Shown here: positions 9,326-49,639 of the stretch, in pieces | How the letters are laid out: the number at the start of each line of letters is the position of its first letter | Position numbering within the stretch: position 1 is the first letter of the stretch | NCBI GenBank assembly: GCA_051362555.1 | Contig: CM120645.1 | Location: 20,398,001 to 20,462,000 of the forward strand | Length of the DNA: 64,000 nucleotides | From: Lingula anatina | Lineage: Eukaryota > Animalia > Brachiopoda | Reading direction: 5' to 3' | Made by a program: the position numbers and the translations under genes | The notes under the pieces: model-generated | Told to the model about the DNA's origin: nothing | What the model saw: the letters and a program-made list of their open reading frames with translations, nothing else | The model's database searches: none

Positions 9326-9403
9326 CAGTGGTGTACAATCTTGTGCCCAAGAAAGCCTCGCAATTAGAACAAAAACAAGTTCTAGTACAAGTTTCACTGA
9401 CAT
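9326..9403 (-). CDS. First coding exon (signal peptide) of IL-17-receptor-like gene copy A; remaining exons not found in the window
   Basis: ATG at 9403, MSVKLVLELVFVLIARLSWAQDCTPL, then a GTAAGT donor; near-identical to exon 1 (31648-31725) of the paralog whose later exons resemble the IL-17R ectodomain. Confidence 0.7.
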
Positions 9404-9487
9404 TTTAGCTGTTTCTTCTCTCCAGCTTTCACATGCTTGAGCTGCGCTGGTTTGTGGACGGTTTCTTGGAATTGGGTCAAAAAGAAC

Positions 9488-9495
9488 TATTTATA
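9488..9495 (-). promoter_or_regulatory. TATA box of IL-17R-like copy A
   Basis: TATAAATA on the minus strand ~85 bp upstream of the ATG; the paralog has TATAAGTA at the same position (31811-31818). Confidence 0.6.
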
Positions 9496-9635
9496 GTCCC
9501 CTTAAAGTGCCCGGATTAACACCTTCAGCATAAGCTGCCGCTTGCGGGGTCGAAGCTAAATCGTGGTGTTAAACAAGAGTGCGCATGCGCAAAAATTTCA
9601 GCTACGTCATGCGCACGTGATGTAAACAAACCAAC

Positions 9636-12047
9636 ATGGCTTTGAAGGCCGAAGAGCCGGTAGTTTTCTCTACTTGGTATGAGGCAGACCAGTTTTTCCA
9701 AAGCTATCAAAGGGAAACTGTTTCCAGGTGGAGAAAAGTGGTCTCCAAGTTGCATTTAGGTAAGTGATAACATGACCATTGTCAATTAAGCCATAATTTA
9801 CAAGGAGATTACCAATGCTCTGGCCCAGAGTCTAGTTCTTGGCGGGAAATCTAAGTTGACTCATTATTAACCTACTCATTTTATCCTCTTCGTGAATGGA
9901 ATTTTATCTCGATTAAGGCCTGGTTGATAAATGGTGAAGTGAACTCAGAGTATTGGCCGTGGTGTGGCTTATACATAACATGAACTTTAAAGTATATATC
10001 AAAATGGCAATTTAGTATTTTTCTTGATTCTAAAGCCAGTTGACCTAAAGTTGAGGGAAAGAGATTGTGAATCAGAGGGCAAACTGACCACTTGAAAATC
10101 ACTGCTTATAGCTAGTACATGCATAATAGTTAATCTATGTTATTGTTTATGTATTTCTAATATTCAAAAACATTTTTACTTTCATTTAGATGTTAGTGCA
10201 GAGGACTTTTTAAAAAGTCTATCTCCCAAAAACCATGTTCGATGGTTCACAAACAACATCCCATTTAATGGGACGCCCTTTTACGTTATTGGATATGATG
10301 AATATGACTGCCACAGAGGTCCAGACAGAGATACCGAAACCAAAAAAAGAGCAAAGGAGGCCCGTGAGCTGAAAAGGGTATGTGAAAACGATAATCATAT
10401 TGTGTGTTCTTTTACTAATTTGTATGCAGTACATGTATGTATGGAATGTGGGAGTACTTTCTGCATATGCTTATTTAAAAAAATTGCCTTAAAATAACTC
10501 TGAATTTCAGAAATGAAATGTTAACTATGTATGCTTAAAGCTGTCTAATGGTATTTACTTGTGCATACATTATATTTTATCATTGTTACATGTGTTTTAT
10601 CTGGTCAATTAAATATTTTTAATATAAATGTGAGATGCAGAAATGGTTCTACCCTAGTTCTTGATCTATAATCTGAACATTTTATCCATTATCCACAGAT
10701 GACAGATCATACATTTTGTAATGTAGTGAAGAGTCGGAGAATAGTTCAGGACACCAAAAAAGTGAATTGCCCTGCCCAAATTACATTGACCAGGATAGTG
10801 CAGTTTCCTGACTATAGAGTAAGCATGTTTTTTTACAGGTCTTATAGCTTATTGTTACATAGATTTATAGTTGTTACTATGTAATGTGTTCTTGTTGATT
10901 AAAGGACATCTTGACTTTATTGCTCTAAATGTTGCCTCTGATGTAGAAAGGAAAATATGATATTAAAATAAAAAAGGGATCATTTTAGGCCAAAAACAAT
11001 GAGTGGGAAAAAAGGAATAAATCCAAGGATCTACGAAGTGCCATCAAACCTGAGTGCCAGTTTGAAGAGGCCTTCTATTTGACACTACCCTCAGAAAACT
11101 GTCATATGGGACATCTTACTAAAGGCGTTGTAAGTTTTTTCATAGGGAGTATTTTGTTGAGAATTTCATAACAAAATAGTTGGATGATTTCATATAAAAA
11201 GTGATTTGTAATGTAAAAAAATGTTAATTTTCTGTCATGTTTGTGATTGATTTTAAAGAATACTATAAGTATCCATAATTATATGTAATTGAAATATACT
11301 GTTCCTTTATTTTAGGACGAGCATTTTGGTAAGACACTTATATATAACTTACATTTGTCCTGGTTTTGCCTTGTGTGCTTTTCTTATGTAAAAGATCTTA
11401 TTTCATAATTCCTGCACTACCCAATTTATCTGCATTTGCTTACTTTTGATAAATATATATTAATATGGTGGTTGGGGCTTTGTGTGATCTTGCTTTGTGT
11501 GCTTTTCAGATGTAAATGGTTTTATTTCACTATTCCTGCACTTTTCTATTTATCTGCATTTGCTTACTTTTCACAAGTAATTTCAGTTTAATATGGTTAT
11601 TGGGATTATGTATGATCTTTTTTTTTTTTTTGCTTTTCTGATGTACATAAATGTTAGCTCACAATTGCTGCACTTGTTTGTGACAATATTTCTAATCTCA
11701 CACTATACACCTGATTCATTCCAAATTCTAAAATTCTAAGTCTAAAAAATGATTGATTAAATCTCCCTGCTTTGTGTAAGTGATCATTGAGGTGAGGGTA
11801 GTTTATAGTGTACCTGAAGGATGTCAAAGGTACAATCAAGTTGATATGTGACATTGTTTAGTAACAAAATGTAGGTTTTGCTGCGAAGGCAATGTTGGTA
11901 AGTAAATATGCCCAAACTACAAGACAAAAAATTGTATTCTAATAACCTAGCTGAACATTAAGTTTGGTAGAAAATGGCAGCTTTTCCATTTGGCAGTAAT
12001 GCTTAGGGAAAATACTCATAGCCACTTTTATCATGGCTGTCATACTA

Positions 12048-12087
<40 letters not shown>

Positions 12088-15000
12088 CAGTGATTTCTTC
12101 TTAAAAATGGAAGGTTATACATTCATATCTTTATTGTCCATTGTTGCAAGTAAGCAAGGATGAAACAAAATAATTATTTACCCTCACATGCTTAAATATT
12201 TTTGTAAATCAAAACTTCTATACAATTTAAGTTTGTTTTATTTTATATATAAACCGTTTATGAAATAATATTTTTAGGATAAAACAGTTGCTTCAATCTG
12301 ATTAGATTTTTATGTCATCGTTATCATCACCATCATCAGAGTTATCAACCAAAGGCCACTACACAGTTCTTTTTCTCCATCATCAGTGTCCCCAATTTAT
12401 TGGTGCTCTATGTCAACACTCCCATATCTTTCGAAGCAGTTTATTTTACTCTGTCCACATGAGAATAGTACATTTGCAGTCTTAATTGAGTAAAATGTTT
12501 AAGATACACAGACGTTTTATACTAATACACTGTATTTGCATATATTTCAGGCAAACTTAATGTCCCAGCCAGTTGATCCTGTCATTGTCAACAAGATAAA
12601 AGAACTGTACCGTCACAACATGAGGAAAGCAAGTCTTATTGAGACGTACATTCATCTTTTTGTCAAAGACGATGTGTTCAAAGGCAAAGAATGTCCTTCA
12701 CGTCTAAATAGACGCTGGTTCCCGACATTAAAAGACATAAAAAACATTGCTACCTGCCAGTCAAAAAACCCTAATGATCAAGTTAATCTTGCTGATTATG
12801 TTAATCAACAGAAGGCAGTGAATCCAGAAGACTTGATATTTTTTAGGGTATGCTATTTTTAAAAAATTATGTTACAAAATCATGATGTTGTAAGATGTCA
12901 CATGGTAGTGGGTAAAATGATCTCTAGAAGGTGTTGACATCTCTGAATGATACTGTGAAATTGAACTGATACAAAATTCTGAGGAATCATCCTTCATGTT
13001 TCCATGCCTGCTAGATCACTGGTATAATAATGATATATTATCCAAATTTTTTCATTTGATTTGTCTAGGCTTCTTCCTTGGGAGAAAATCAAAAGGTGAA
13101 CTTCTTGTTTGTATATCAGACAAAGTGGCAAAGGAGACTGCTGAAACGATATGGCAACCACATAACACTCATGGATGCTACTTACCGCACCTCTAGGTAA
13201 CACTAGTGGGCTTGATTTGGTCTTAAAGTGCAATTTAAGAACATAAATAGTCTTACATGATCTTAAAACATGAGTAAGACCATTTCTAGTCTGACAGCCA
13301 ATTAAGTTGTCTCCCCTTACACATTCTCTATTGTGAGCAGAGGTGTCTTCTATTGTGAGGGGAGGTATCCCCCATTGTGAGGGGAGGAAACTGCTTGACC
13401 ACATTAGTAGATGTTAGATCATTTTTGATCTTAAAAGCAGATTCAGTCCATTTTAAGACTACTGCTGTAATGTTTAAGATCGTGTAAGATCACTTGTGAA
13501 CTTAAATTGCACTTTAAGACCAAATCTAGCCCACTAGTGTAAATTATATGAATTATCAAATATATAAATTCTATAGCGCTTTATGTTGCAATTTGTTTTG
13601 GAACATCATTATATTTGTTATTTTAATATTATAAAATTTGAAGCATCAAGAGTAGAAAATGAGCCAAATCATGCTTTATGCAGACATGAGGTTTTTCTGC
13701 AGAAAAGCAGAATTCCACGGTTTTTAAATTCAATTCTGATGGTTCCTGAGATTCGTAATGGTGTTTTTTTAACCTAGGCTCATGCCTTATTATATGAGCA
13801 AATATAAAGATTAATTTATTTTTCACAAATAATTGGCATTTTAGAATAAATATTATGTATTTAATATTTGTAAATTGGTGTTGCCTAGAATGATAGGTAA
13901 TTAACTTAAGATTTATCTATAATTCACTCAGATGAAAATAGTTGCCAAAAGAGGAATTCAAATTCACTTGGGCAAATTGAAATATTTCAGCAATATTTTT
14001 GGGATAAATACATGCAAAATGTTTTTACTCACTGGGGTTACATGAACCTACATTTTATCCTACAAGACAAAGCAAGTACTACATACAGGTGTATTTAATC
14101 TGCCCCTGACAGTAAATAAAATAACTTTAAAAAAGGCTTTTTGTCAACATTTTAATGTTTCATTAAATTTTTTTCTTCTATTTTTTTCCTGAGCCAAATA
14201 TTTCTTTCTTTTATAACTAGGTATGCCATGCCCCTATTTTTCATTTGTGTGAAGACCAATGTCAATTTCACAGTGGTGGCATCCTTCCTGGTAGAAACAG
14301 AAAATCAGGAATCCATCATGGAGGCCCTGGCCATAATCAAGAAATACAGCCCAGAGTGGGATCCTGAACATATGATGGTGGATTACAGCATGTCTGAAAT
14401 AAATGCATTAGAAGCCTCATTTCCAGGTTTGTGCACACTTGTTTGACAAACATTTATACTTAACAGCAGGTGCAGCTCAAGCGTATACATCTGTATTTTA
14501 AAGATTTTGAGCACAACTAGTAAAAATCACAAATGGTAAATTTTTAAAAATTAGGATTAGTCAACCTCATTAATCAACTTTCCAGTCTTGTCTGCCTTAC
14601 CCACCCTGGTATTGATTGATTTATTGTATTTGGCTTGATTAACAATTACTAATCTAGATAATATATTTTTTAACGGGAAGGATAAATGGCCTTCTATGAC
14701 TTGTTTTATTTAGAGAAAAATGTATTGTACCTAGAGAAAAAATTTCAAATTAATTTTTTTTTCAGAAACAAAAATCCTCCTATGTGATTTCCATCGTGAA
14801 AAAAGCTGGAAAGAATGGGTGTCAAAAATTCAGAATGGTGTGTCAGGGTGCCAAGAAGAATGCCTTGGCATCCTTAGAGCTCTGGCACACAGTCCAACAG
14901 TCACAGATTATAAAGAGACACTGGCGCAGTTTAAGTCCAGTGATTTGTGGAAATATAATCCCAAATTTAGGACCTATTTTTCCAACCACTGGGAATGTAG

Positions 15001-18000
15001 AGCTGAGGTAACAATTAACTGCAGAAAATACTCGATTATTACCTAAGACAAAAATGTTAATCCTAACCATTGTTTTAAATTTGCATAGATATGTTATACG
15101 TAGGTTGTATAAAAAACTTTTAAATGCAGTGTCATAAGGTGCTGATTTTAATTTTTATGCTGTCATAAATGATAGGCGGTTGCTCTAAAATCTTATTTCA
15201 GAAGTGGGTAAAAGCATACAGGGGCACATTGCTGATCCCCGTCAATTCCAACAACGGATTGGAAAGGCAAAATCTTGCCTTAAAGGATAGTTATCTGCAG
15301 GGATTTAAGAACTGCACTATAGAAGCTTTGGTGAAGGTGTTGGTGGAAATGTTCATTCCCAACTCATTTGTCAGGTAATTCATTTTTAAGAAAAAGGGCA
15401 ATTACCGGGGGGGGGGGGGGGGGGGGGGGGGTCAAATTTAACAGAATGGACTACGAAATTGGGAAATTTGACTTTTTTGTTCTTTGTGGACTATGTAGTT
15501 TTTTATGTACATATTTATATGAAAGTATGTCTACTTCCTTCAATCCTACTGTACTACTACTTTTATCATCTGCATGTGTAGGAGCTAGTGTAGTACTTTG
15601 GATCACTGTGTCGCCAGTCAATCACATCAGTTATCCCTTTGCAGGACAATTTATTAATTGATAAATGCACCAGGGTTTGACATTCCATTGCATAAGAGGT
15701 TTAATGAAAGGAGTGCTTGTTAATTAAGTAATGCATTTTGAATCCAATTTTACAGATACATACTTTTACTTAAGTCGATATTAATGTGTGTATTAGTATA
15801 ATTTGATAGATCGCTTAATTTTTTTTAGGTACCAACAACTAAACATCCGTTGCTCTGCTGAAAAAAGGCAGTACAGTCAAGAAGTACCAACTTTCCTGCA
15901 CAACAGACCAGTGCAGTTTGTAAGGCACATAATGGATCGGTGGACAACATTTAATATCAGCAATGTCAAGAGGCTGTCATCAAACCATTTCAAAGCAAAG
16001 AATGATGACCAGACAGAATATAACATTTCACTGGATCCCTGCTGTTGTGAGTGCCCTGATTTTTGCCAACATAAAATTCCATGCAAACACCTTTGTGCAG
16101 TCCTGAAATTTCCAGGGGTGTCTTGGTCTTCACTGGGTTCAATTTTTAACAGCAATCCAGCATATTTGCTGGACGAGGATGTCATCGACCAATCTCCTGT
16201 GTCATACAGTGATGAAATTTCAACGGTAACATCTGAACCTCCCCCTCTTACATCTGAGTCTCACCCTACTGAAACAGATGTCATAATAAATGACCTTCCC
16301 AAAAGAAAGAAAAACGTGGCCAAAGAACAATCCATCTGCATTTCCTTGGCCAAGGAATTACTGGATTCACTCTATCAAATAGACTCTCTCCAAGACCTGC
16401 AGCATATCAGGAAACAGATAGGCATGGTGTTAGAAGAAGCAAAAGGGGCAATTCCACATGAGTATGGATTACCAAAAAAACCTAAGTCTCCACGTAAAAA
16501 GCCAAAGGTATCACCCAAAACAAAAATTGGTTCTTTACCCCAAAGACAGAAGAAGCTGCAGTTGATGAAAAGAGTGGGAAAAGGAGCAGAAATAGCTAGA
16601 AGAAAGCGGGGATTATCTGATCTCAACTTGAGTCAAGCAGGTATTTTTATATCAATTAATATTTTAGAGGTTTTGATTATCCTATTAGGTTATCAGGCTG
16701 CATTAGCTATCTTGACAAAATTTATGTGTATGTTTTTTTTTAATTTCTTTTAGGCAAAGATATTGGGCATGCATAATGTATTTTGTATAAATTACTCATA
16801 ATCTCTTTAAATGTTTAATTGAGGGGTATAAAGTGAAGCATTCAAATAATTATTTTGTAGCAAAACCATCAGCAGTTCCACCAATAAAGAAAGTATGTGT
16901 GGAAGCAAAAAAACAAGAGTCACCAAGCTCACCAAAGGCACAAAACAAAATCAAAATACATTTAAATCGATGTAAGTACTAGAAGGTTTTGACATGCATG
17001 GGCAGTGGCAGTAAGATAGGAGGAGTACTCATTGAAATATGTGTAGGAGTATGTTTGTAAAAAGTAGTAACAAAAAATTATATTCTATTACATTTTAAAA
17101 AGAATAAAAATAATGAATGCTTTTTCAACTTTGAACTTTTATCATTAATAATAAGCTTTACATTTATCATTGAAGATGCTGTCCCTTCACAAAACACCAA
17201 TGTGACGCTTGGAAAATACAAGTCGCATCATATAACGTATGACAGTATTACATCTATAAATGGGATGCTTGCTGATGAAGTAAGTAAACAGGTTTGTTAC
17301 ACTGGTAAAACATAAGGATCTTATCATATCTATTGTTAAAATGAGCTGCATAGACTGAAATGATGCCTTGCAGCATTTGCCTTGTTATTGATAGTACATA
17401 CTCAATGTAAGAAGACGTTAATTTCTCTTTCTGCTGCTTGTTTTTTTTTTTTTTTTTATAAATGAGATATATAACATGCTTAATGTTTTAGGTAATTGAC
17501 AGTTATCTGGACATTATGATTAGCAACAGTGGCAAGAAGGTAAGGATTATAATGAAGTGCAATAAAATGACAGAATTAAATGTCATTGAAAACACCAATG
17601 ACATTTGGTTATAATTGATGAAATGGTAATAATGATCAAAGTAATAATAACAACTATTATTAACGTTATTATTGTAAAAATAGAAATAATAATTATGTTT
17701 ATTAAAGGCATAAGAGCTGTTCATTTTGGCCAAAATAAAAAAGGATTTTTTTTTTTGTCAAAATGGACATACCTAACAATGGTAGATACATCCATTCTGA
17801 CAATTTAATTTAATCAAGGTTTTTTCTAAGCTTGGTTTCTTGTAAGAAATTAAGAAATTATTGCAAAAGGTAGCTGTCTGTGGAGGTCTCATAGTTCGAT
17901 GGCAAGTACAGATTCCAGAATAATTGTGATAAACGGCATTTTGGTGGTAAAATAGAATTTATTATATTTCTGGGATTGTTTTCAGTGTATTTATTATGAA

Positions 18001-20232
18001 ACATAAATCTCATACAAAAAGTTTTCTCTTTAAGCTTTAAATGTCACATTGTGTATTCTAACTGGCTTTCTTAGCTGTAATTTAAATTGTAAAATACACT
18101 GCTGCACTATATACATATCAGTTTTACAGAAACATATACTCTAGTTCATGATGGCATGCTCACGTCATTACAAGACTTAGTATATCATAGCATCATGCAT
18201 GATAAAATAATACATATAATGCATTTTAAAAATGTCGAGATGTTTCCAAGATCATAAAGAGAAGGGTGATTCTTTGCTCATATGAGGTACAAACGTCATC
18301 ATTTAAATTATTCTTTTCACAGGTGTTCCATGTGAGCCTTCATGTAATGTCCAGGATTGTATATGATGGAGACATGACTTATTTTTCTAAGGTTAGCCAT
18401 ATACACATTGAATAGTTAGCTGAATATGCTTTAAAGAAAGAACTTTCAAATTTTTTTCAGCCATTATTGAATTTTTTTAACCTCCTTTAACTTTACTGGC
18501 ACTTTTGAAAAGGCATTAGTATATATGTAATAGTGTTTTAAAATGTTATCTTCCAAATTTATGTTTAAAAAAGTCATTATTCTCAATACTTTGGTTTCTT
18601 TATTTAATTTTCAGAGATATATAGGTTTGGTGACATTCATTTAGTAATTGTAATAGTAATAGTAATTTAGTAATTGTTTCCCATCCCAGTTGCAAAGAAT
18701 AGCTTCATTTGAGTTTAAATTCTTTTTTCCAATTTTTTTCTTTGTTTTTAATATAGAAAGACCTCCGAGAATATGACATCATAGTGGGAGTTTGTATTAG
18801 ACGAGGACACTACTCTGTCTTGGTAAATATTCGACCCTTACATGGGACTCTCTCAGATTAAAATTTGGATTTGGGTTGTTTTTACTTACATAGGCAGTTT
18901 ATCTCTCCAAAATATGTAACACTGCTATATGAAATGCTTGACATGAGGTAAAAACAAATCTATATCATTTTTAATTATCCTGTTTTTGCAAAGAAAATTC
19001 TACATTTATTTGTATATTTAAAAGACAATTTGCAAAATTTGAGTACTTTGTATTAGATCTGATGTTTGATTAATTCGCCACACCAACACCAATTGTGTTT
19101 TGTGCTACTTTGAAAATATGCTGTAATGACTGAGGCTTATTTTTTCACTTGTGCCTATAGTATTGTGGAAGAAAGGAGGGGAAATACACCTTTGTCAATT
19201 CTCTTGGAGAGACTGGTCAAGAAAAGGACACAATCACAAGAAACTGGGGGTAGTTGAATTTTAAAACATTTAAAAAAATGATAATATGTCTTATTGTATT
19301 GCATTAATAATATATTTTATTAATTATGTTATTTATGTGTGCAAAGTGCAGACAAATCAATGTTATGATTAGGTATAATTTTCCTTGTGATGTATTTTCA
19401 GCACCTTTTCCAAAAGAAAAGAAATTGGATGCCAGTTTGTCACCATCGACCATGAGAAACAACTGGATGGCTACACTTGTGGGCTCTGGTGTATACATGT
19501 GAGTGATGTTACCTAGGAAGCACACATATCAATATAAGTTTTAAAATTGTACACCACTGAAGATTTCCCAAGCATTTATAGGGCAGTAATTTTTTTAGAA
19601 TTTATATGTAGTGTGGGGGGTTTCCTTTTGTTCTTATTATATAAATAATCATTTTGTTATTATTATTACTTTTTATTCAGGCAGTGGAGCACCTGTTGGA
19701 ATATGGGTTGAACAGAACTCCAAAGATCTGCCAGCCAGACTTTTTAAGGCTTAGGCTAAATATTGCCACTTTGATTTTAAGAAATATTGGTATGAATATG
19801 GAATTTAATTTTTCTTAAAACAATGATTATGAAAAGAATAATTTTTTTTTACAAGTTAGAGTTGAAATTTACCTTTAAAATACTAAAAATGTAATTCTAA
19901 AAAGGAAGTAATGGACATCAAAATATCTTATTTATTTTCAAGACTAGCATTAATATTTAAATTTATGGATTTAGTTGGCAAATTCATTAAATTGCTTTAA
20001 AGTTGGCTATGCCCAGGGAAAGCATTTGAGGATCTCACTGTTTTACAGATTTCAAAATAGATGGGGTCATATCTGTCTGGAAATGTCACCGACTTTGCCC
20101 TTTGGTTTTATGATTAATACTGATAACAAATTATCTTTTTCTTGATTTTCAGTTGTTGCAGACAAAAGACACCTAGAATTAAGACCTGTTGGACAGAAGA
20201 TCAAATTAACTATGTCACAAAGCAACACTTAG
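9636..20232 (+). CDS. Multi-exon transposase: CaRF/ALS2CR8-like DNA-binding domain + MULE DDE + SWIM + Ulp1/C48-like protease (~1,067 aa)
   Basis: Phase-consistent GT-AG exons: 9636-9759, 10190-10377, 10699-10818, 10989-11129, 12551-12847, 13069-13196, 14221-14426, 14766-15007, 15202-15374, 15829-16640, 16861-16971, 17176-17279, 17492-17539, 18323-18391, 18757-18822, 19161-19249, 19402-19498, 19681-19789, 20153-20232 (last exon uncertain; alternative acceptor at 20049). Motifs: IPFNGTPF..CHRGP, CPAQI..QFPDYR, WFPTLKDIKN (CaRF-like); LMDATY, MMVDYS, CDFH, NSNNGLERQN (DDE plus CxxH); CECPDF..PCKH (SWIM); LADEVID, GHY, VNSL, QLDGYTCG (Ulp1-like). Confidence 0.85.
11360..11650. repeat. ~125-bp tandem duplication (about 2.3 copies) in transposase intron 4
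   Basis: Repeated TGTGTGCTTTTC...ATTCCTGCACT...TTTATCTGCATTTGCTTACTTTT. Confidence 0.7.
13201..13539. mobile_element. CACTA/CMC-like MITE nested in transposase intron 6
   Basis: ~70-bp imperfect TIRs starting CACTAGTGGGCT and ending AGCCCACTAGTG, with TAA on both sides (13198-13200, 13540-13542). Confidence 0.8.
17875..18032. repeat. Dispersed repeat fragment (also at ~20985-21140 and ~31350-31502)
   Basis: Shared CAGAATAATTG...TTTGGTGGTAAAA-AG...TGAAA-AT-AATCTCATA motif at three places, two inside the MULE and one outside. Confidence 0.7.
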
Positions 20233-21161
20233 TGTATCAAATCCTGGCAATTATGTTACTATTATATACTACCATGTACTTATATCAAATATTATATATA
20301 CAGAATATTGAATGAAACTTTTGCATTAACAGTGGACATTCCATAACATTATTTAAATATATTTGTATTATTACTATTTATATAATTGATATTGGGATGC
20401 TGTTGGTATTTTTTAATGGTGTTTGGGTGATGGACTTGTTAACAAGCTATGTGCACTAGCATCTGATTTAAGGATATAATACTGTACTGTATTTACAGTA
20501 TGTCTTCATTTTACATAATAGTGGAGAAAAATAGTTTTAAGATCTTAACAAAAATCAGTCAATCTTAGTTATGCCAGAGCCCTCTAAGTTAATTTTCTGA
20601 GTAAAATTATTGTACTGAAATACAGTTAAATTTTCATTAAAAATAAAATTAATTTTGGGTGGGTCCAAATCGGGGGTCTCTTTATCACCTGCAGTACACA
20701 TACCTTATACAATCGTCTAAGAGGGATCAATATATGTGCAACAAAAAAGATTATCATAATGATTGTTGTAAAATATTAAGGAGAAGATGAGTGTCTCTTA
20801 TTATCTGATTTTAGATGACATCTACTGTGTACAAGTAAATGACAGTCATAAAATATGTTTTAAGAAAAGATCATATGACATGTTAAAATATCAACAATAT
20901 ATTTATATTTATATTATTCTATCTTTACATGAAAAAGTACTCTACCCAAAGGAACAAATAATTTAGTGTTTCCCCCAGAGGTTAGCCACCTGTGATGGTC
21001 CAGTGTACAGCACAAATTTCAGAATAATTGCCATAACCATCATTTTGGTGGTAAAATAGTATTTATTATATTTCTATGTGTTGTTTTAATACAATGTATT
21101 TATTGTGAAATATGAATCTCATATGGAGAGTTGTTATCATTCATACAGTATATATATACCA

Positions 21162-21222
<61 letters not shown>
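21162..21222. repeat. (TA)n microsatellite
   Basis: Seen directly in sequence. Confidence 0.95.
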
Positions 21223-21226
<4 letters not shown>

Positions 21227-21854
21227 TGTGTGTGAAAATATGTTTGTATGTGTACATACAATGTAATGGAGATTTATTTCAATTCAATTCACTATTATAT
21301 ACTACATCTTTTTCTTTTCTTTTTTTTCAAACTACTGGTACTCTACTGGTACTTGTAAATTTATAATGACTTTTTTCTGTGGGTGACATGGTTGTGCTTA
21401 AAAGTAATATAAGATTTATGCAAATAAATAATTTTTTGTGTTTTTTGGTACTACACTTTTTTTTTATTTTTTGGTATTGTAAATTAACCGACATTGCTTA
21501 AAATCGGATATGGGTGTGCAAAACTCCCGGTCCCGTGTTTCACAGGTTTAGGCTCTGTGTATTATAAAGGTTATGGCAAAGTTAAATAGTATGCCGTCTA
21601 AAACAAATTATTCACTTCTACAACTTAAATTACAGACTTACTTACAGGTAAGAGACGCCAAAGCCAAAAACAACAAAAGTGATTAGAAATATCCAAATTA
21701 AACAGCCGCCATCAGTTTAAAACGAAGTCAATTTCTATGTCGGTATATACATACACGTGTTTTATGTTTACATCACGTGCGCATGACGTAGCTGAAATTT
21801 TTGCGCATGCGTACTCTTGTTTAACACCACGATTTAGCTTCGACCCGCTTGCGG

Positions 21855-25249: not shown

Positions 25250-26260
25250 TTATGCTAAGCTTTTAAACGAACTGAAATTTCTTTCATTTTTATGCAGTTG
25301 GGTTTTAGAGTTTTTATTAGACAGGAGACAAGCTGTGAAAGTGGGTACAAGTACTTCTGATATTGTGATCTTAAATGCAGGTGCGCCTCAAGGTTGTGTT
25401 CTGTCACCATGTCTGTACAGCATGTTCACGTATGATTGCGTTTCATCTCACGAGAGTAATTGCATTGTGAAGTTTGCAGACGACACCATTTAAATTGGCT
25501 TAATAAGTGTTAATGATGAGACCTGGTATAGAAACGATGTCAACTCAGTTGTACAATGATGTAAAGACAACGATTTGTTACTGAATGTAGGGAAGACTAA
25601 GGGAATGATTGTTGACTTCAGAAAGAATAGAAATGTGAAAGAACCCATTTATATCAGTGGCACTGCGGTAAAGCGAGTAACCAATTTTAGACTACTGGGG
25701 GTAGAATTCAATAGCTCACTTACATGGAAGGACCACCTAGACAAACAGTTAAAAAAAGCGAGGCAAAGGGTATATTTTTTAAGAAAGTTGAAGGATTTTA
25801 CTTCAAATGATTTGATTTTAGCAAACTTTTATAAATGCATTATAGAAAGTATATTAACATTTTCAATTATGGTATGGGCGGGCCACTGTAGAAGAACGCA
25901 AGCGTCTAGATATGGTCACATCAACGTGCGGCAAAATCATCGGTCTGGAACTCCCCTCTCTAGGTGCCATCTATGCTAACAGATCAGTAATAAAAACAGA
26001 GAAAATCATGTCTGACTATACCCACCCCGCACATGAGCTTTTTAAATTTTAACCGAGCAACTGCAGACTTTTAACTTTTAAGGGTTCTAAAAGGTTTTTA
26101 AAGAGTTTTCACCCATCTGCTGTATCTTATTTTAACAACAAAAATGGAAATTTATTATTTATAACTTGTAACCCGAATAGCAGTCCGATTTCCGTTTTAT
26201 ATGAATTTTTATATTTATATATATTATTGGCTGAATAAACTCTTATCTTATCTTATCTTA
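25250..26260 (+). mobile_element. 5'-truncated, decayed LINE (CR1 group, Rex/Babar- or L2-like) RT C-terminus with (TCTTA)n tail
   Basis: GAPQGCVLSP and KFADDT RT motifs, LNVGKTK, KKARQRVYFLRKL; in-frame stops and frameshifts; AATAAA followed by TCTTA x4 at 26241-26260. Confidence 0.9.
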
Positions 26261-31179: not shown

Positions 31180-33839
31180 ATGATAATGCTCCACCACGTA
31201 CACCACGTACAGCCAATGCAACAGCAGACCGGTTTTAGCAGGTTAAAATACAAAGACGACCTCCGAGGAAGCTATTGTAAGCAGCAAAACAGTGTCGTCT
31301 GTTTCTCTAATGAATCTCTTAAGAGATTATTACAGAGTATCGCCATCTATGATAGTCACGTGGTCCGATGGCAAGCACAGATTCCAGAATAATTGCGATT
31401 ACCGCCGTTTTGGTGGTAAAACAGAATCTACTATATTTCTACGAGTTGTTTACAATGTATTGTGAAATATGAATCTCATACGAAGAGTTGTTATCCCTTT
31501 AATATTGGCACAATGCTAATTTCTCTCCTTCCTTTTCATCAATACCAATTTCTTGTTTATCCATAAATAGATTTTTTTTAAAAAAAACTTGCAACTAACA
31601 ATCACCACCAAAAGATGCGCTTTAAATCATCCTAAAAGCTCACCTACCGGTGGTGTACAATCTTGTCCCCAAGAGAGCCTCGCAATTTGAACAAACACAA
31701 GTTCTAGTACAAGTTTCACTGACATTCTTTGCCGTTTTTTCTCTCCTGCTTTCACAAGCTTGAGCTGTGCTGCTTTGTGGATGGTTTCATGGAATTGGCT
31801 CGATAAGAACTACTTATAGTCCCATTAAAGTGCCCGTATTATTAGTTCCTGTGAAAGCTGCTGTTTGCGGGTCCATGAATGGTGAACCATGATTCGTCTT
31901 TTTTGTTATGATATGGTTATGGAGTGTTCGTTTTACTTCATCACATCATGTAAAAATGTGTTTTAAATCCCAAGTGTTAACTGCGTGCCCACAAGAGAGT
32001 AAAAATAGTGGCAACTAGGGGTTCAACAGACCAAAGTGACAAAAACTGGTGCGGTAAAAGGTCCTCATGAAAAAGTTTTCACCATTATGTTCATGGATGT
32101 TAATGTTTTCTTTTCTTTTCTTTTCAAAAACAAATTATCCGGATGGGAACTTTCATAGAATTGAACAAAACTTCACAGAGGCCTTTAAAAACTGCAGTTA
32201 CAGTGCATTTATACAGAACAACAATTTAATAGGTGTTTGGGGTGATAGGGTCTTTATCATCATTTTATATATTTCCAACATTCAATTACCGTACGAGTCA
32301 CGTATCTTGTCACCAACTGTGATGGAAGGAATGGCGAAAAGAATATAAGCACTTTAATTAAGGATCTATTGGGTCACTTGCACTGAATATATTTTCTATT
32401 GAAATGTTAAAGATACATACAAAGTCAATTTTTTCTCACAGAAACCAACCAAATGCCAGCATATAGTTTCAAGTAGTATAACTAAGAGAATTACCAAAAG
32501 GCATTGTTTAATTTTACCCGAAAATAAGGTTTGAACACATTTTTCTGCTGGTATTCTAAGCTTTATGTCAATGGGGCAGGAAAGTAGGTCACGGAAGTAG
32601 GTTAAATTTACAACCATAAATTTAAAGAAAGGAGCAGTCTAAAGGTCTTTTATGGCTGATCGAGTGATCTATTCAGTTTACCCCTTGGCATGTCAAATTT
32701 ATTTGAGTCATATAAGAATCTAGTAGAAGTGGTTTACATGTGTTACTGGGAATCCACGCTCCACCGATGCTCGGTTCGTATGTACCTTTAAGCGGTATGT
32801 CAGTCAACAACTGAGGGGCAGAAAACTACAGCGTAGTAACATTTGGAGTAATATGTTCTGTCTATTGATATGGCTACAAAATAGTGAAAAACGCAGTCCA
32901 CTTGAGACCTGATGTACTGGGACTGCATGTTGTTGACCAACTCCACTCAAAATCAGATCAAAATAGGGCTAATACTTATGTGCGGTGGGACTTATATGAA
33001 AATTGAAAAAGAAAAGAAGAAAAGAAAAAAAGAAGAGAAAAAGAGAAAACATAATGTGCATTGAGATGAAATATTTCCAGTGTTTCTAAAACTGTCATTC
33101 TTAGACAAACGCAAGGTCTTTAGGTGCCCTGAAACTTTTAACTCCAGCGTGCTTCTTGCAGAAAAGGAGAGATGCCAACAATAACAGCATCCAATTACCT
33201 CTTTAACTACTTCCTGTTCTAATGTGTTGAATGGTTACTTGTTTTCAAGTTACTCTTATAATCACCAGCTTTTTTGTATTCGAGTTAACACTAGAAGGAG
33301 GCGTGCTAATCTGTTAAGCTGATTGCACTTAGGGAGAGCCTCCGTAGAGATAAGCTGACCTACGTAGGCCAATGTGTCCCTAGGTCTTAAGTTAGTTGTA
33401 CTAAATTGCTTCCCAAGCCTCTACTATGTGCTTGCCTTAATTTGAAACCGAAGTGTTATTTTTAACGAAATTTATAGGAAAAGAAACTGTTTATATTGGC
33501 CAAATAATGAATTTTCTTGGGGTGAACAGCAATTTTCACATACAATGGTAAATGAATCAGTTCCGTCAATCGAAATTAGTTAATTGTTTTTTTTCTTTTT
33601 AGATCAGGAGTTCTTCCATAATATGTAGAAACAGTCCGCTTTGTTAACAAAAAATTAGAAGATAGACTCTGTATTCTCTGTAACGATAAAAAAAGTAGAA
33701 GATGAGTATTATTTTTTATTTGATTGTCCAATTTAAATAAAATTCAGGAAAAAATGGTGTGAAAAAAGTAAAAATGGGCGATCTTATCTTTCCTGACCTG
33801 GTAAAATTTTACTATAGACGCCTGACTATTTTTGGCCGA

Positions 33840-34880: not shown

Positions 34881-35543
34881 AGGTATGTAGGCCTAGCATT
34901 TAATTATCTCTGCAAAACAATGAAGGTATTTTCAGACTTTGTGCTTATGTGTATTTATACTAGGTAATTTATCTCAAAACACCCCCGTGTAACCTGCGAT
35001 CTAGCTACTCAAAACAACTTCCATTTCTGTTGGGGGTGGGGGGGAGGTAGGGTTTATCAACTGGAAATATTCTTTCCACCTGCTTGTAAATTAATAAACT
35101 ACCGAGATAGGAATAGGTAGAGGTGTGAATGACATTGTGATACATTACATGCAATAACAGTGGGGGAAAACAGATGTGGAGAGAAGGTGTGAGGTTTTGT
35201 ACGAAGTCATGTTTAGGTCTTGGTCATTATTCTGTGGGGTGTAAAACTTAAGGTGATAGTAGTGTATATGAGAAATGACTGTCCATGACTTGCCAAGAAA
35301 CCCTTTTGACGTACATGTACGTTATATTTGCCATCAGCAAAAGAGGGAAACATCTGTCTAGAGAAGCTAACATTCTCACCAAATTAACTCATGGTACTTA
35401 GAATGCATTTTTCATTTCTGCTAAAGAAAAACATATTGAGCTATTTTCAGAACCTTTAAATTGTATTAACAATTATTTTTTTCAGATTTTTACAAATAAT
35501 TTAAAGGGAAAGATAACGCAACTGCTTTTTTAAAGAGAACAAA

Positions 35544-38500
35544 ATGGCGACAGCATGCCCTCAAAGCCCGCAAAATATTGAGAGAAATCCTGGACTTCAC
35601 AGTAACCACGCAATATTACAAGTTATTAAAGAAAAGATTATGGAAGAGAATGACAGGGTAATTATGACATTTGAAAATTATTTGATTTTTATCATGGCAT
35701 TTGCATCATGGTGTAAGACTTCTTTAAGTATGCAACCACAACTGTAATTTGTCTGAAAACAGAAGTCCACTAAATAAGAATACTGTCACCAATAAGACTG
35801 TCCAGTAAAGGCATTTTTGCTATTTCTCATAGGTAAAAATCAGTTTCGTTTGAAAAGGTTTACCTTTTAATCAGACTGCGTTCTTTTAGTAAATAATCCA
35901 AAAACAAGTGTTGATGTTTTAAAGCTTGTGTTGCAGACATTATATATGTACTCAATTATTCAATTATCTGCGAAATTGGTCCTTTCAGTAACCATCAGCA
36001 ATAGATTAAAACCACCCACATTGGTCATCTACAGTTATTGGCATATTTTTCAGAAGACCGATGTTTTTTATTAATGTTATCGATTGTTGAATAAATATCC
36101 AGACAAATCCAAAAAGAAAAGCATGCAAAAGAATATGATTCTTGCTACGGTCAATTAAGTGTTGTAGTCAACACAATTTCCTACATATGATTAAATTTAT
36201 TGCAGCGACCCTTCTATATCGTTAACTTGGATGACATCGTTGCCAAGCACAAGCATTGGCTGGCACAAATGCCACGTGTCAAACCCTTCTACGCCGTGAA
36301 ATGTAACAACACTGAGCCAGTCGTGAAGACCATTGCGGCACTTGGAGCGGGATTTGACTGCGCCAGCAGTGCCGAGTTCCAGCAGGTTCTAAATCTTGGG
36401 GTGGGTACAGATCGGATAATATATGGCCATCCTTGCAAAGATCCCCAGGATATCAAACTTGCTTCAGAACAAGGAGTCGACCTGATGGCCTTTGACAACG
36501 AGTGTGAATTGGTCAAGATAAAGAGACTCTATCCAAGCGCAAGACTTGTGTTACGGATCCAACCACAAGATGACGAGGATGTATATAAACACGGCAAGAT
36601 GTATGGTTGTGCCTTAGACCAGTGCAAAGAACTTCTCGTGAAGGCGAAAGAAATGGAACTGACTGTCGTGGGTGTCAGGTAGTTCAACAAATGTTTCTAT
36701 TATCCGGTGGCTGTAACATTAATATCATTGAACTACAACTGTTTTGTCTATTCAGAAACTACTGTAGACGCATTGGTTCACAGCTTAATTGAATCACTCT
36801 GTATAAACACAGGTTTGTAAACCATCTTCATACATCTAAATCTCAAATGTATGTATGTATCTCTTTTATCTTCCATATTTAAGTTAACAATTTAAGTTTC
36901 TTTTTGAATTTGTCCAGTGTGATGATAAAAATTAAATGGCCACTAGTTGTTTGGTAATTAATTTAAAGCGAGGTAAGTCCCGTTCACACTATTTTTGTTT
37001 GAATCGTTCACACGAGAGGCTTTACAGCGATAGAATCTAGATTTGGAGTAATTGCAATTCAAAATGCAGTGTGTGAATAGGAAAATACATAGTCACAAGT
37101 TACGCACACCTAAATATAAATTTTGAAATTTAGAATTTTGAAATGATTAAGTTAGTACATGTATATGCATCCGCACTGCATCCTTAATAATTAAAGTAGT
37201 AAAAGTGTGAAATTGAACAATTTTATTATTTGCTATAGTTAGGTATGTAATTCAGTGTTTCACAAAATTATATTTTCCTTAGCTTCCATATCGGTGGCCT
37301 CTGCACTGATTACATGGCCTACCACCACACCATACGCCTGTGCCGTGACATCTTTGATGATGCCAAATCCATGGACTACAACTTCAGCTTACTGGACATT
37401 GGTGGCGGGTTCCCCGGTTATGCAGTCGAAAACAACCCAACATTCTCTGATGCTGCCAAAATCATAAACATGGCGCTAGACGAATATTTCCCTAAAGAAG
37501 AAAATGTTGAAGTCATTGCTGAACCTGGAGCGTACTACGTGCAGTCGGCCTTCACGTTGGCACTACGAGTTATCGGAAAACGAGTTCTACGCTCGGCAAA
37601 CTCAGCCAAGGTTTGTGCATTAATTTTTTTTAAGTTGTGTATGAAGTTAAGTGTTTGATAAACTCTACCAAATGCCATTATATAGTTTCTAATAACATAA
37701 CGTAAAAATTACTAAGGGGTGTCGTTTCATGCATGCCGAAAAATACTATTTGAACATGTTTTCAGCTTTATTTCTTTGCTATATGTTTCACTTGATTGTT
37801 TCTGTCAAGTCTTGAAATTTAGTGCTATTGTGTGCGTAGCAGTAATGCGTAATGTTCTAACTACGTCAGGCAGTTTAACAATCTGAGGGGCGGATAAATA
37901 TATCAAGTTAATGTCCAACAATAAGTTTTTAAGCCATTATTTTGGCAGACCGAGGGATTATATTGGCTTATCTCTTGGCATGACTTAACTTGAGTCGTGT
38001 AAAAAACTTGTAGAAGTGGCTCATGTGAGATATAGGGAAACAACGCTCACTGCATACATGTCTGTAATTTTAATTTTGGCGTTTGCTTACTATTTGTTTA
38101 ACTTTTCGTGACTAATCTATTAGTTTGTATGTCTGATCCGTTTCAAACTACTTTAACATGATCTCTATCTTTTTTCATGTGCCATAAAGGTCTCTCAACA
38201 GTCATACTTCTACTACCTCAATGACGGAATCCATGGGTCATTCTTTTGCAATTTGTTATTTTTGGCTGACAAGCTGGTTAGAAATTTTCACGTTGTAAAG
38301 GTATGTAGCTAATACAATGACCATGAAAAGTATTTACATGAGGTTTCACAAATATCAGGGGCGGATTCAGAGCTATTTTCTGACAGTCTTCCAAATGATC
38401 TTTGTTGATCCTTCCTCCAATTTTGACAGTCTTCCAACAGAAAAAATTAGATATCTTTCAATGTAAACTTGAAAATCTGACCGTCTTCTGGAAGACCCAG

Positions 38501-39020
38501 AAGACGGCTTAAATCCGTTAAATTATATAGGGTAAAATCTGGTAACCACATTGACTGATAGAGTAAAAAATGAGTAAGTAAAAGGTTTATTATCTAAACC
38601 TTTTGGTTATAATCCAAAAATGTTACAGGTTATTTTTTCCTCCTTTTTTTGTTAATTTTTCTTTTTTAAATAATAATAGAGCAATCAACACAGTTATGTT
38701 TTATGCCTAAATACATGTATTTGATTTATATATATATATATATATATTCACACACGATACGCTTTGAAATCATTTTTGGATTATTATAGGACGAGGTCCA
38801 AATGCCGGTCTACCAGAGCACCTTGTGGGGTCCAACACTCAACCCTGATAATCTCCTGGCAGAAAATATCCAACTGCCCGAATTGGACATCGGAGACTGG
38901 TTGTACGTACCTAACATGGGGGCATACACTATTGTGCTTGCATCCTCTTTCAATGGGATTGCTCCGCCGGAACTATTTTATTTTGCGTCTGATGAAATCA
39001 CCTCCGAACTCGGTGCTTAG
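35544..39020 (+). CDS. Ornithine decarboxylase-like / antizyme-inhibitor-like protein, copy 1 (418 aa)
   Basis: Exons 35544-35657, 36206-36678, 37283-37610, 38190-38300, 38790-39020 in frame; PFYAVKCN, GFDCAS, SFHIG, LDIGGGFPG, IAEPG, NDG, NMGAYT motifs; WGPTLN replaces WGPTCD. Confidence 0.9.
38356..38520. mobile_element. Small hAT-like MITE in ODC-like copy 1 last intron
   Basis: Starts CAGGGGCGGATT and ends AAATCCG; absent from the equivalent intron of copy 2. Confidence 0.5.
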
Positions 39021-39445
39021 GGGAGACAGTTGAGGAGTTTGTATATCTGTCTTGATTGGAGCCCATATCAATCACATGTTGAAAAAAACATGGGAACAAT
39101 ATGAACTAAAACGTAGACAATATCAATTAAAACGTATGACATGATCGTAGAAACTTAGAAAAAATTGCCTATTGCTACTTTCAGTTTTAATCCTCATTTT
39201 CCACGCCTCATTTAGGCGTCTTATATTCCTCTTACATTCAGACAGTAACACAGGTATAATCTAGTCTAAGCAGGAAAATGATTTGTATCGTATACCTGGG
39301 TAAAACGAAATTGTTATGCACGGCATATACGGCAACATAATGTACATTCAACATAGTGACTTGCATATCAAAAAGAGTCATTAACACACTCACTTACCAG
39401 AGACAGATTATGCAATAAACATCTTACAAGTTTTACAGCCATTCA

Positions 39446-45745: not shown

Positions 45746-45935
45746 TACATCTAGAGAAGCTGACATCCCCACCAAGGTAACTCATGATACTCAGAATGTA
45801 TTTTTTTTTTCTTTCTGCCAAAGTAAACATACCGAGCTATTTTCAGAACCTTTAATTATTTACAATTAATTTTTTCAGATTGTTACAAATATTATAAAGG
45901 GAAAGATAACGCAACTGCTTTTTAAAGAGAACAAA

Positions 45936-48900: not shown

Positions 48901-49028
48901 GAGACTGGTTGTACGTGCCTAACATGGGGGCGTACACTATTGTGCTTGCATCCTCCTTCAATGGGATTGCTCCGCCGGAACTATTTTATTTTGCGTCTGA
49001 TGAAATCACCTCCGGACTCGGTGATTAG
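45936..49028 (+). CDS. Ornithine decarboxylase-like / antizyme-inhibitor-like protein, copy 2 (418 aa)
   Basis: Exons 45936-46049, 46599-47071, 47450-47777, 48412-48522, 48798-49028; same structure as copy 1 with extra changes GFYCAS, RIKY, GGGFAG. Confidence 0.88.
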
Positions 49029-49639
49029 GGGAGACAGTTGGGGAGTTTGTATTCCTGTCTTGATTGGAGAATCACACATGTTGAAAAAACAATGGAAATA
49101 ATATCAACTAAACATTGCCGTAGAAAAATTAGAAAAAAATCGCCTATTGCTACAAACGGTTTTAATCCTCATTTTTATCTGGGTCATTTTTATACCACAC
49201 CAATAACTAGCGTTCTCGTCGGCACAGCATATTTTATACCTATCAGCTAGGTAGTAGGCATTTTATATTCAGCGTACTTATGTGTATAAACAGTAATTTG
49301 TTAACATGTTAGCTGCATGCAAGTCCGCCAGGGCTCCGTAACTCGAAAGCATCGCGAATTGCGACCGAGCGCAAGCGCCTCTATTCCATAACTGGAGATT
49401 TACTCGCCCCATGTAATAGCCTAGCCTCGAAATGAATGTTGAGTTGACTGAAGAAAAACAAGAATATGATCAACTCATCCAAGCACTACACTATCTTAGT
49501 TCATAAATGGTTTCTTGTTTCATGTTGGGTTCTAAACAATATCAACCTCACCATTTTCGTTCTAAAACCAACTACAGGAAGTAGACGTTTAAAACGTAAT
49601 TTAATATCTATGTCAGACTCAATTAAACCACAGACCTGA

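What the first reader, a model, noticed from the sequence alone, without database searches (positions are those of the whole stretch)
9548..21845. Intact, intron-rich Mutator transposon whose transposase is fused to a Ulp1/SUMO-protease-like domain
Seen: eight short exons after the SWIM exon (16861-19789), almost invisible in the ORF track, continue the transposase frame without a stop and give GMLADEVIDSYL..RGHYSVL..FVNSLG..KQLDGYTCGLW, the motif order of clan CE/C48 proteases (His, acid position, oxyanion Gln, Cys). Known: Ulp1 domains occur in some plant MULEs (Kaonashi) and some Phantom elements, so the association itself is not new. I do not know of a description of this CaRF-type, ~19-exon single-chain form. 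Inference: the transposase could carry a deSUMOylase/deubiquitylase to its own TIRs and counter SUMO-dependent silencing, or process itself.
Basis: partly seen in the sequence, partly recalled or inferred. Interest (0 to 1): 0.85.

Follow-up and report, generated by a model that had tools for sequence, protein, structure and literature searches.

The report
Brachiopod transposon with swappable protease tail
This is an intact-looking 12-kb jumping gene of a lamp shell whose cut-and-paste enzyme is predicted to be spliced to a SUMO-protease-like tail; that pairing is already known from other transposons, but here the tail was likely swapped between two distant transposon families and lacks two tryptophans usual in such proteases.

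Summary
Real, and mostly a known kind. The element (9548-21845) has 81-bp TIRs, a perfect 9-bp target duplication and a 19-exon, all GT-AG, stop-free 1067-aa frame: CaRF-type domain, MULE DDE core, SWIM, basic linker, protease. A Lingula anatina RefSeq model matches 871 of 873 residues. The tail folds as a clan CE protease (Z 20.9 to Ulp1) with His-Asn-Cys plus Gln, but misses Pfam's C48 cut-off and has Met/Tyr in place of two usual Trp. RNA reads join protease exons 15-16-17; the transposase-to-tail junction was not seen (depth under 1). Mutator-Ulp1 elements are published for hydra and lancelet; the same single-chain layout occurs in Ciona, Solemya and Saccostrea models, and this scan noted the pairing before on other DNA. 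New here: a second Lingula model shares the protease at 76-80% but the transposase core at 44%, and the two transposases are rejected as sisters (AU p=3.5e-5), which points to module exchange. A RefSeq isoform skipping exon 16 loses the catalytic Cys. Likely role: a tethered deSUMOylase that helps the element; untested.

The parts
9539..9547 (.). left target-site duplication (9 bp)
   Evidence: identical to 21846-21854
9548..9628 (+). left TIR, 81 bp; the ATG lies 8 bases after it
   Evidence: 80 of 81 match to right TIR
9636..11129 (+). exons 1-4 (9636-9759, 10190-10377, 10699-10818, 10989-11129): N-terminal part of the CaRF/ALS2CR8-type domain; absent from the RefSeq models
   Evidence: GT-AG, in frame; Pfam PF15299 hits collinear on exons 2, 3, 4 at profile 2-48, 59-88, 91-141
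12551..12847 (+). exon 5: end of CaRF-type domain
   Evidence: PF15299 profile 166-227, E 2e-10; RefSeq models start here
13069..15374 (+). exons 6-9 (13069-13196, 14221-14426, 14766-15007, 15202-15374): MULE DDE core; D326 at 13174, D387 at 14381, CxxH at 14783-14794, E503 at 15262
   Evidence: PF10551 E 4e-14, PF21056 E 8e-17; positions; conserved in 21-row alignment; joint 15007-15202 in 3 reads of X2
13201..13539 (.). nested non-autonomous insertion in intron 6 with CACTAGTG ends, 68-bp inverted arms and a TAA duplication
   Evidence: (I25); many repeat-like RNA reads
15829..16640 (+). exon 10: SWIM finger, helical hairpin, basic disordered linker
   Evidence: PF04434 E 2e-5; model pLDDT under 50 at P0002 470-505 and 555-661
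16861..16971 (+). exon 11: rest of the linker; not shared with the second Lingula element
   Evidence: 7 of 37 identical to P0003
17176..19789 (+). exons 12-18 (17176-17279, 17492-17539, 18323-18391, 18757-18822, 19161-19249, 19402-19498, 19681-19789): CE-clan protease domain; Met878 at 17265, His939 at 18808, Tyr940 at 18811, Asn956 at 19197, Gln993 at 19460, Cys999 at 19478
   Evidence: RefSeq X1 match; fold; RNA joints 18822-19161 and 19249-19402; positions
20153..20232 (+). exon 19 coding part with stop TAG at 20230-20232
   Evidence: matches last 26 residues of P0002
21765..21845 (-). right TIR, 81 bp
21846..21854 (.). right target-site duplication

Best explanation
This is an intact-looking Mutator (MULE) DNA transposon of Lingula whose single gene is predicted to splice a CaRF-type transposase to a Ulp1-like cysteine protease, which likely strips SUMO from the transposase or from chromatin proteins at the element and so likely helps it stay active. 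Shown: TIRs, 9-bp TSD, open 19-exon frame, intact DDE/CxxH residues, splicing of three protease exons. Predicted: the CE-clan fold with His939-Asn956-Cys999 and Gln993, held on a flexible basic linker of about 100 residues. Inferred: the N-terminal domain binds the TIRs and brings the protease there; SUMO is the substrate; skipping exon 16 or retaining intron 10 gives protease-less transposase, a possible switch; the protease exons are a cassette that moved between distant MULE families in this genome, which suggests it is useful to the carrier.
For: Anatomy. RefSeq X1 joins exons 5-19 the same way. Fold: model pLDDT 89.6; Foldseek ranks 1-27 are all SENP/Ulp SUMO proteases, best E 2.9e-11; VIA Z 20.9, rmsd 2.5, 185 aligned to Ulp1 1euv. 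54 of 61 sequence relatives of the tail carry Pfam C48 at E<=0.001. In 40 of those 61 relatives aligned, His, Gln, Cys are 40 of 40 and the third residue is Asn in 24, Asp in 16; Asn is an accepted triad residue in clan CE (PMC1847702 passage). RNA joints 18822-19161 (X1 6, X3 3, X9 1 reads) and 19249-19402 (X1 3, X3 2). Cassette exchange: P0003 shares 36 of 45 and 86 of 113 protease residues but 100 of 227 core residues; proteases are sisters 100/100, transposases rejected as a clade, p-AU 3.5e-5; similarity starts at exon 12. SUMO is used in piRNA silencing of transposons in Drosophila (PMC10363806 abstract); VANC-Ulp1 of plant Vandal MULEs is tied to anti-silencing, Ulp1 role unknown (PMC13317346 passages).
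Against: No activity or substrate was tested. The joint 16640-16861 was not listed in any of the 6 runs laid (threshold 3 reads, depth there under 1), so the fusion rests on frame, a computed RefSeq model and homologous models. The Trp after the catalytic His (37 of 40 relatives) is Tyr and the N-terminal Trp is Met; PMC4961225 (passage) links these Trp to substrate recognition and notes their loss in YopJ acetyltransferases. Pfam C48 12.5 bits against a cut-off of 20.7. NEDD8 protease scores Z 19.7, barely below Ulp1, and CE specificity cannot be read from fold. The model was built on an alignment of C48-like relatives, so the fold search is not fully independent. 17 of 19 transposase relatives have no such tail in their models, so it is dispensable. 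P0003 is an unverified gene model lacking exons 14-15 (with the His) and could be chimeric.
Confidence: 0.5

Rival explanations
1. The tail is an active isopeptidase but for ubiquitin or NEDD8, protecting the transposase from degradation or tuning repair at the break, not countering SUMO silencing.
For: NEDP1/SENP8 Z 19.7 against 20.9 for Ulp1; CE-clan enzymes switch between Ub, NEDD8 and SUMO (PMC4961225 passages); OTU replaces Ulp1 in Ginger1 transposases, and a role in DNA repair was suggested (PMC2836005 passages).
Against: Profile of the tail family ranks Ulp1/SENP1/2 at E 1e-26 to 1e-19, SENP8 at 2e-12; Foldseek ranks 1-27 are SUMO proteases, NEDD8 protease first at rank 28.
Confidence: 0.18
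2. The tail is a processing protease with relaxed specificity that cuts itself off the transposase in the disordered linker.
For: Loss of both Trp could open the Gly-Gly tunnel; 107-residue disordered linker; polyprotein processing was suggested for OTU-fused MULEs (PMC1702500 passage); viral CE proteases appear among fold hits at Z 11-13.
Against: No Gly-Gly in the 1067-aa chain; fold much nearer Ulp1/SENP than viral proteases; splicing already yields protease-less forms.
Confidence: 0.12
3. The tail is a weak or non-hydrolytic domain (SUMO-binding reader, or an acyltransferase like YopJ) or drifting cargo with no use to the element.
For: Met878 and Tyr940 replace the Trp pair; long stem branch (1.28) in the protease tree; below Pfam cut-off; RefSeq X2 and the P0003 model both lack catalytic exons.
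Against: His, Asn, Gln, Cys all kept; frame open across nine small exons; 76-80% conservation with P0003; YopJ-like folds score only Z 9-11.
Confidence: 0.12
4. The protease exons are transcribed separately or the main transcript ends in intron 10, so transposase and protease are not one chain.
For: Junction 16640-16861 not listed in RNA; read-through of the exon 10 donor gives a complete transposase ending at 16751; plant Kaonashi is a separate gene (PMC4948706 passage).
Against: Canonical phase-matched donor and acceptor; both RefSeq isoforms join exon 10 to 11; same-strand reads over exons on both sides; single-chain models in Ciona, Solemya, Saccostrea and a Logan contig.
Confidence: 0.08

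Closest known systems
Ulp1-bearing Mutator transposons of hydra and lancelet (Repbase reports cited in Bao, Kapitonov & Jurka 2010, PMC2836005; passages seen)
   Same: Animal MULE with a Ulp1-like domain in the transposase; ubiquitin/SUMO role in transposition already proposed.
   Different: I could not see those sequences, so whether they are CaRF-type is untested. Here 18 introns, no PHD finger, both Trp replaced.
Unpublished single-chain models: Ciona LOC144746767 (P0081), Solemya ScPMuIL_009711 (P0093), Saccostrea LOC134252909 (P0056)
   Same: CaRF(ALS2CR8)-MULE-SWIM-C48 order in P0081 and P0093; MULE-C48 in P0056; Asn at the third triad position in P0093 and P0056.
   Different: They keep His-Trp, P0081 and P0093 end in a PHD finger, and their proteases are only about 27% identical or less to this one; their transposases do not group with this one.
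Kaonashi / C48-MULEs and VANC-Ulp1 of plants (PMC4948706, PMC13317346; passages)
   Same: MULE carrying a C48 domain of unknown function, patchy across clades.
   Different: Kaonashi is a second gene, often in non-TIR elements; here a TIR element with the domain on the transposase chain.
Ginger1 transposases with Ulp1 or OTU tails (PMC2836005; passages)
   Same: Intron-containing animal DNA transposons with a C-terminal Ubl protease fused to the transposase.
   Different: Gypsy-integrase-type core, 4-bp-type Ginger biology, 0-4 introns.
Yeast Ulp1 / human SENP1-2 (MEROPS C48)
   Same: Predicted fold, His-acid-Gln-Cys order.
   Different: 16-18% identity, Asn for Asp, Met and Tyr for the two Trp, below Pfam cut-off.
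Recombination between divergent Mutator clades in maize (PMC10401008; abstract)
   Same: Internal exchange between divergent elements makes new gene combinations.
   Different: There TIRs, mudrA and mudrB inside one family; here a protease cassette between transposases 44% identical in the core.

Membership tests
MULE/Mutator superfamily | TIRs and 8-10 bp TSD (PMC5499845 passage) | tested here: met
   81-bp TIRs (shorter than the typical >100 bp), 9-bp perfect TSD
MULE/Mutator superfamily | DDE triad | tested here: met
   D326, D387, E503; invariant or >=90% conserved in 21 aligned proteins; PF10551 53 bits
MULE/Mutator superfamily | (C/D)xxH 15-45 aa after the second D and a Trp before the E | tested here: met
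   C408xxH411, 21 aa after D387; W477 nearly invariant
MULE/Mutator superfamily | [quoted passage not shown] | tested here: met
   PF15299 over exons 2-5 and PF04434; DNA binding itself not tested
MULE/Mutator superfamily (autonomous, active) | Multiple near-identical copies, empty sites, transposition | not testable with these tools
   No genome held; one copy in the window
Clan CE cysteine proteases | CE fold | tested here: met
   VIA Z 20.9, rmsd 2.5, 185 aligned to 1euv_A; first 29 rows Z>=9 then a drop to 5.8; Foldseek E 2.9e-11
Clan CE cysteine proteases | His, Asp/Glu/Asn, Cys in this order with oxyanion Gln (PMC1847702 passage) | tested here: met
   H939, N956, Q993, C999 align with invariant columns; 3D geometry not inspected
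C48 Ulp1/SENP family (canonical) | Pfam PF02902 gathering score | tested here: not met
   12.5 bits, E 0.13, cut-off 20.7; 54 of 61 relatives hit it at E<=0.001
C48 Ulp1/SENP family (canonical) | [quoted passage not shown] | tested here: not met
   Tyr940 and Met878; Trp after His in 37 of 40 relatives
C48 Ulp1/SENP family (canonical) | Cleavage after Gly-Gly of SUMO/NEDD8 | not testable with these tools
   needs an assay
Kaonashi / KI-MULE | C48 in a second gene beside mudrA | tested here: not met
   one predicted frame, RefSeq single chain; junction read not seen
Phantom (MULE group 20 of PMC6446971) | Placement in the Phantom clade | not tested

The most novel reading that the evidence does not exclude
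The eight protease exons are a mobile cassette that has recently been exchanged between two deeply divergent CaRF-type MULE families in one animal genome and kept because it helps the carrier; its Trp-less active-site tunnel gives it a specificity unlike host SENPs, and exon-16 skipping switches it off. That would be direct evidence that transposon-borne Ubl proteases are selected counter-defence modules, with a natural on/off isoform pair to test it.
Probability: 0.25. Interest if true: 0.65.

Novelty: new member of a known kind. Interest (0 to 1): 0.36.

Why it matters
Ulp1-like domains ride on many DNA transposons and their function is still described as unknown (PMC13317346, 2026 review, passage). 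This element is intact, expressed and has a natural catalytic-null isoform, so it is a usable test case. The apparent exchange of the protease between distant families argues against passive cargo. The pairing itself is not new, and Lingula is not a tractable genetic system, which caps the interest.

Tried and rejected
No RNA holder was listed by the index; raw-read runs were laid instead. Junctions 10-11, 11-12, 12-13, 13-14, 14-15, 17-18, 18-19 and all of exons 1-8 were not listed (low depth, 3-read threshold; 10 joint rows were hidden): no evidence either way. Pfam on single protease exons: 0 of 6 hit; on full P0002: no C48 at E<=5. phmmer of P0002 against PDB: only E 0.5 to a CE protein. 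ESM Atlas unreachable in 5 tries. Copy number: no genome. Phantom paper not held; Hoen 2006, van Leeuwen 2007 and the Repbase reports were seen only as citations. Literature searches: 'CaRF, Mutator, transposon' whole-word gave 0 papers; none of the 15 papers listed mentions Lingula; searches listed none using the CaRF terms; searches listed no functional test of a transposon-borne Ulp1 by title or abstract start. This covers open-access text only, not Repbase or Dfam; supplements were not read and PMC2836005's alignment files could bear on whether the hydra/lancelet elements are CaRF-type. Self-cleavage at Gly-Gly rejected. A domesticated host CaRF gene rejected: near-perfect TIRs and TSD enclose the whole gene. 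A chance exon chain rejected: RefSeq match, RNA joints, fold. The 13-nt candidate micro-exon at 11316-11328 was left out of the model: it gives a stop at codon 204 and the direct exon 4-5 join fits P0003 spacing.
Full report
Observation. The element runs from 9548 to 21845. Its TIRs are 81 bp with one mismatch and it is flanked by a perfect 9-bp duplication, CGCTTGCGG. Inside, 19 exons from 9636 to 20232 join into a stop-free 1067-aa frame, with 18 of 18 introns GT-AG. Pfam places ALS2CR8 (CaRF) collinearly over exons 2-5, the MULE/RNaseH core over exons 6-7 and SWIM in exon 10. D326, D387, C408xxH411, W477 and E503 are invariant or nearly so in a 21-protein alignment and match the MULE hallmarks given in PMC5499845 (passages).

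Independent support for the exon chain. A search with exon 10 found one protein, Lingula anatina LOC106181007 isoform X2, 100% identical over the query. Its cluster partner X1 (XP_013420695.1, P0002, 873 aa) equals my exons 5-19 at 871 of 873 residues. The two differences (14929 G>T, 14954 T>G) are what 3 of 3 reads in run X2 show, so another allele or copy is expressed. RefSeq XP models are computed predictions (recalled), so this is support, not proof. X2 equals X1 with exon 16 skipped, which shifts the frame and removes Asn956, Gln993 and Cys999. Both models start at Met195 and omit exons 1-4.

RNA. Six runs were laid, reading 6-30% of each. Expression is low (depth mostly under 2) and, in X1, X2 and X3, from the element's strand. 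Joints listed: 15007-15202 (X2 3 reads), 18822-19161 (X1 6, X3 3, X9 1) and 19249-19402 (X1 3, X3 2). These join the His, Asn and Gln/Cys exons. The joint between exon 10 and 11 was not listed; depth there was under 1 against a 3-read threshold, so it stays open. Read-through of that donor would stop at 16751 and give a tail-less transposase.

The tail. On its own it reaches only 12.5 bits on Pfam C48 (cut-off 20.7). An HMMER search of 1.84 billion representatives gave 62 hits, one being X2 itself; 54 of the other 61 carry C48 at E<=0.001. An alignment with 40 of those 61 (chosen for short length) has His, Gln and Cys in 40 of 40, Asn in 24 and Asp in 16 at the third triad position, and Trp after His in 37. 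Its profile finds yeast Ulp1 at E 2e-26. The AlphaFold model (pLDDT 89.6) matches SENP2 at E 2.9e-11 and Ulp1 at Z 20.9, rmsd 2.5 over 185 residues, with NEDP1 at 19.7 and YopJ-like proteins at 9-11. The model leans on that alignment. A model of all of P0002 shows a folded transposase, a helical hairpin, a disordered basic linker (555-661) and the separate protease domain. The Lingula tail has Tyr after the His and Met where Ulp1 has its first Trp; PMC4961225 (passages) counts both Trp as substrate-recognition positions. So it works like a CE-clan Ubl protease by fold and triad, but is not a canonical C48 member.

How common. Of 19 transposase relatives (X2 excluded), 2 carry C48: Ciona P0081 and Solemya P0093, both CaRF-MULE-SWIM-C48-PHD; a profile built without the query found no tail in the other 17. 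Two hits of the tail search are also MULE fusions, Saccostrea P0056 and an unnamed Logan protein P0049. In print, PMC2836005 (passages) lists Ulp1 in Mutators of hydra, lancelet and plants and in Ginger1, and suggests a role of the ubiquitin pathway in transposition. PMC4948706 and PMC13317346 (passages) describe plant C48-MULEs and call the function unknown. PMC12903978 (passages) reports MULE-ULP fusions in rice. PMC6446971 (passages) has no hit for Ulp, C48 or CaRF. Earlier notes of this scan report the same pairing in other genomes, none on look-alike DNA. I found no paper joining CaRF, Mutator and transposon, within open-access text only.

What is new. A second Lingula model, LOC106175477 (P0003), shares the protease at 36 of 45 and 86 of 113 aligned residues, but the DDE core at 100 of 227, SWIM at 14 of 45 and the linker at 47 of 183. 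Similarity begins at exon 12 (25 of 35) after an unrelated exon 11 (7 of 37), and the gap in P0003 matches exons 14-15, so the two share exon borders. In a tree of 60 of 63 protease domains they are sisters (100/100, short tips). In a tree of 19 of 22 transposase cores (3 short rows dropped) this element groups with a goby protein lacking a tail (100/99) and holding the two Lingula cores together is rejected (p-AU 3.5e-5). Reads with about 8 other differences over exon 16 appear at 88% likeness and mostly vanish at 92%, consistent with a second expressed copy of the cassette. The simplest reading is exchange of the cassette between families; direction is unknown, and P0003 is an unchecked model that could be chimeric. 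Exchange between divergent Mutator clades has a precedent in maize (PMC10401008, abstract).

Mechanism. Most likely the transposase binds its TIRs and carries the tethered protease, which removes SUMO from itself or nearby chromatin proteins; SUMO is widely used in piRNA-linked transposon silencing in Drosophila (PMC10363806, abstract). Binding, substrate and benefit are all inferred. Rivals are Ub/NEDD8 specificity, self-processing (no Gly-Gly in the chain), a non-hydrolytic or altered enzyme, and unjoined transcripts.

Verdict. Observation confirmed, interpretation partly supported, a new member of a known kind with two unusual traits (probable cassette exchange, Trp-less site). Interest 0.36.

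Noticed in passing
window 9326-9547, minus strand: The element sits about 50 bases upstream of a TATA-like box (9490-9496) of a head-to-head host gene whose first exon (9403-9326) reads as a 26-aa signal-peptide-like leader; RNA reads of that orientation cover it. Fits the Mutator taste for gene 5' ends.
   Followed up: partly
window 13201-13539: Nested element with CACTAGTG ends and TAA duplication (CACTA-like by recall) inserted four bases into intron 6, leaving the GT donor intact.
   Followed up: partly
window 11316-11328: 13-nt candidate micro-exon with a strong AG and GTAAGA; inclusion would stop the frame at codon 204 and might explain why RefSeq models start at exon 5. Possible poison exon, no reads seen.
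   Followed up: partly
window 9578-9628 and mirror in right TIR: TIR interior holds GCGCATGCGC, ACGTCA, CACGTG and TGTAAACA, which resemble NRF1, CRE, E-box and FOX sites (recalled); the ATG is 8 bases past the TIR, so the promoter is probably in or beyond it.
   Followed up: no
window 17850-18140, 20954-21138, 11366-11675: Dispersed-repeat fragments inside introns and the 3' region; one has a copy at 31319-31495 and attracts many reads from elsewhere.
   Followed up: no
window 35500-39050 and 45900-49060: About 10-kb tandem duplication carrying two ornithine-decarboxylase-like genes (PF02784), 93-96% alike in blocks.
   Followed up: partly
window 51087-52892, 58028-58507, 62568-63158: Repeated collagen-repeat exon (PF01391) followed by a 195-aa Cys-rich exon with no Pfam match; resembles invertebrate short-chain collagen C4-like proteins (recalled).
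   Followed up: partly
window 54625-55014 and 25560-25979: Tc1/mariner transposase fragment (PF01498) and a fragment with PF09004, usually the tail of a LINE reverse transcriptase (recalled).
   Followed up: partly
window 61593-61849: Near-perfect hairpin, 122-nt arms 98% complementary with a 13-nt loop.
   Followed up: no
P0008, P0032, P0035, P0048: The tail's nearest branch is a group of fish proteins, several fusing a C48-like domain to an AP-2-like domain, apparently multi-copy; others fuse it to chromo shadow, PWWP, UBA or PHD domains.
   Followed up: no
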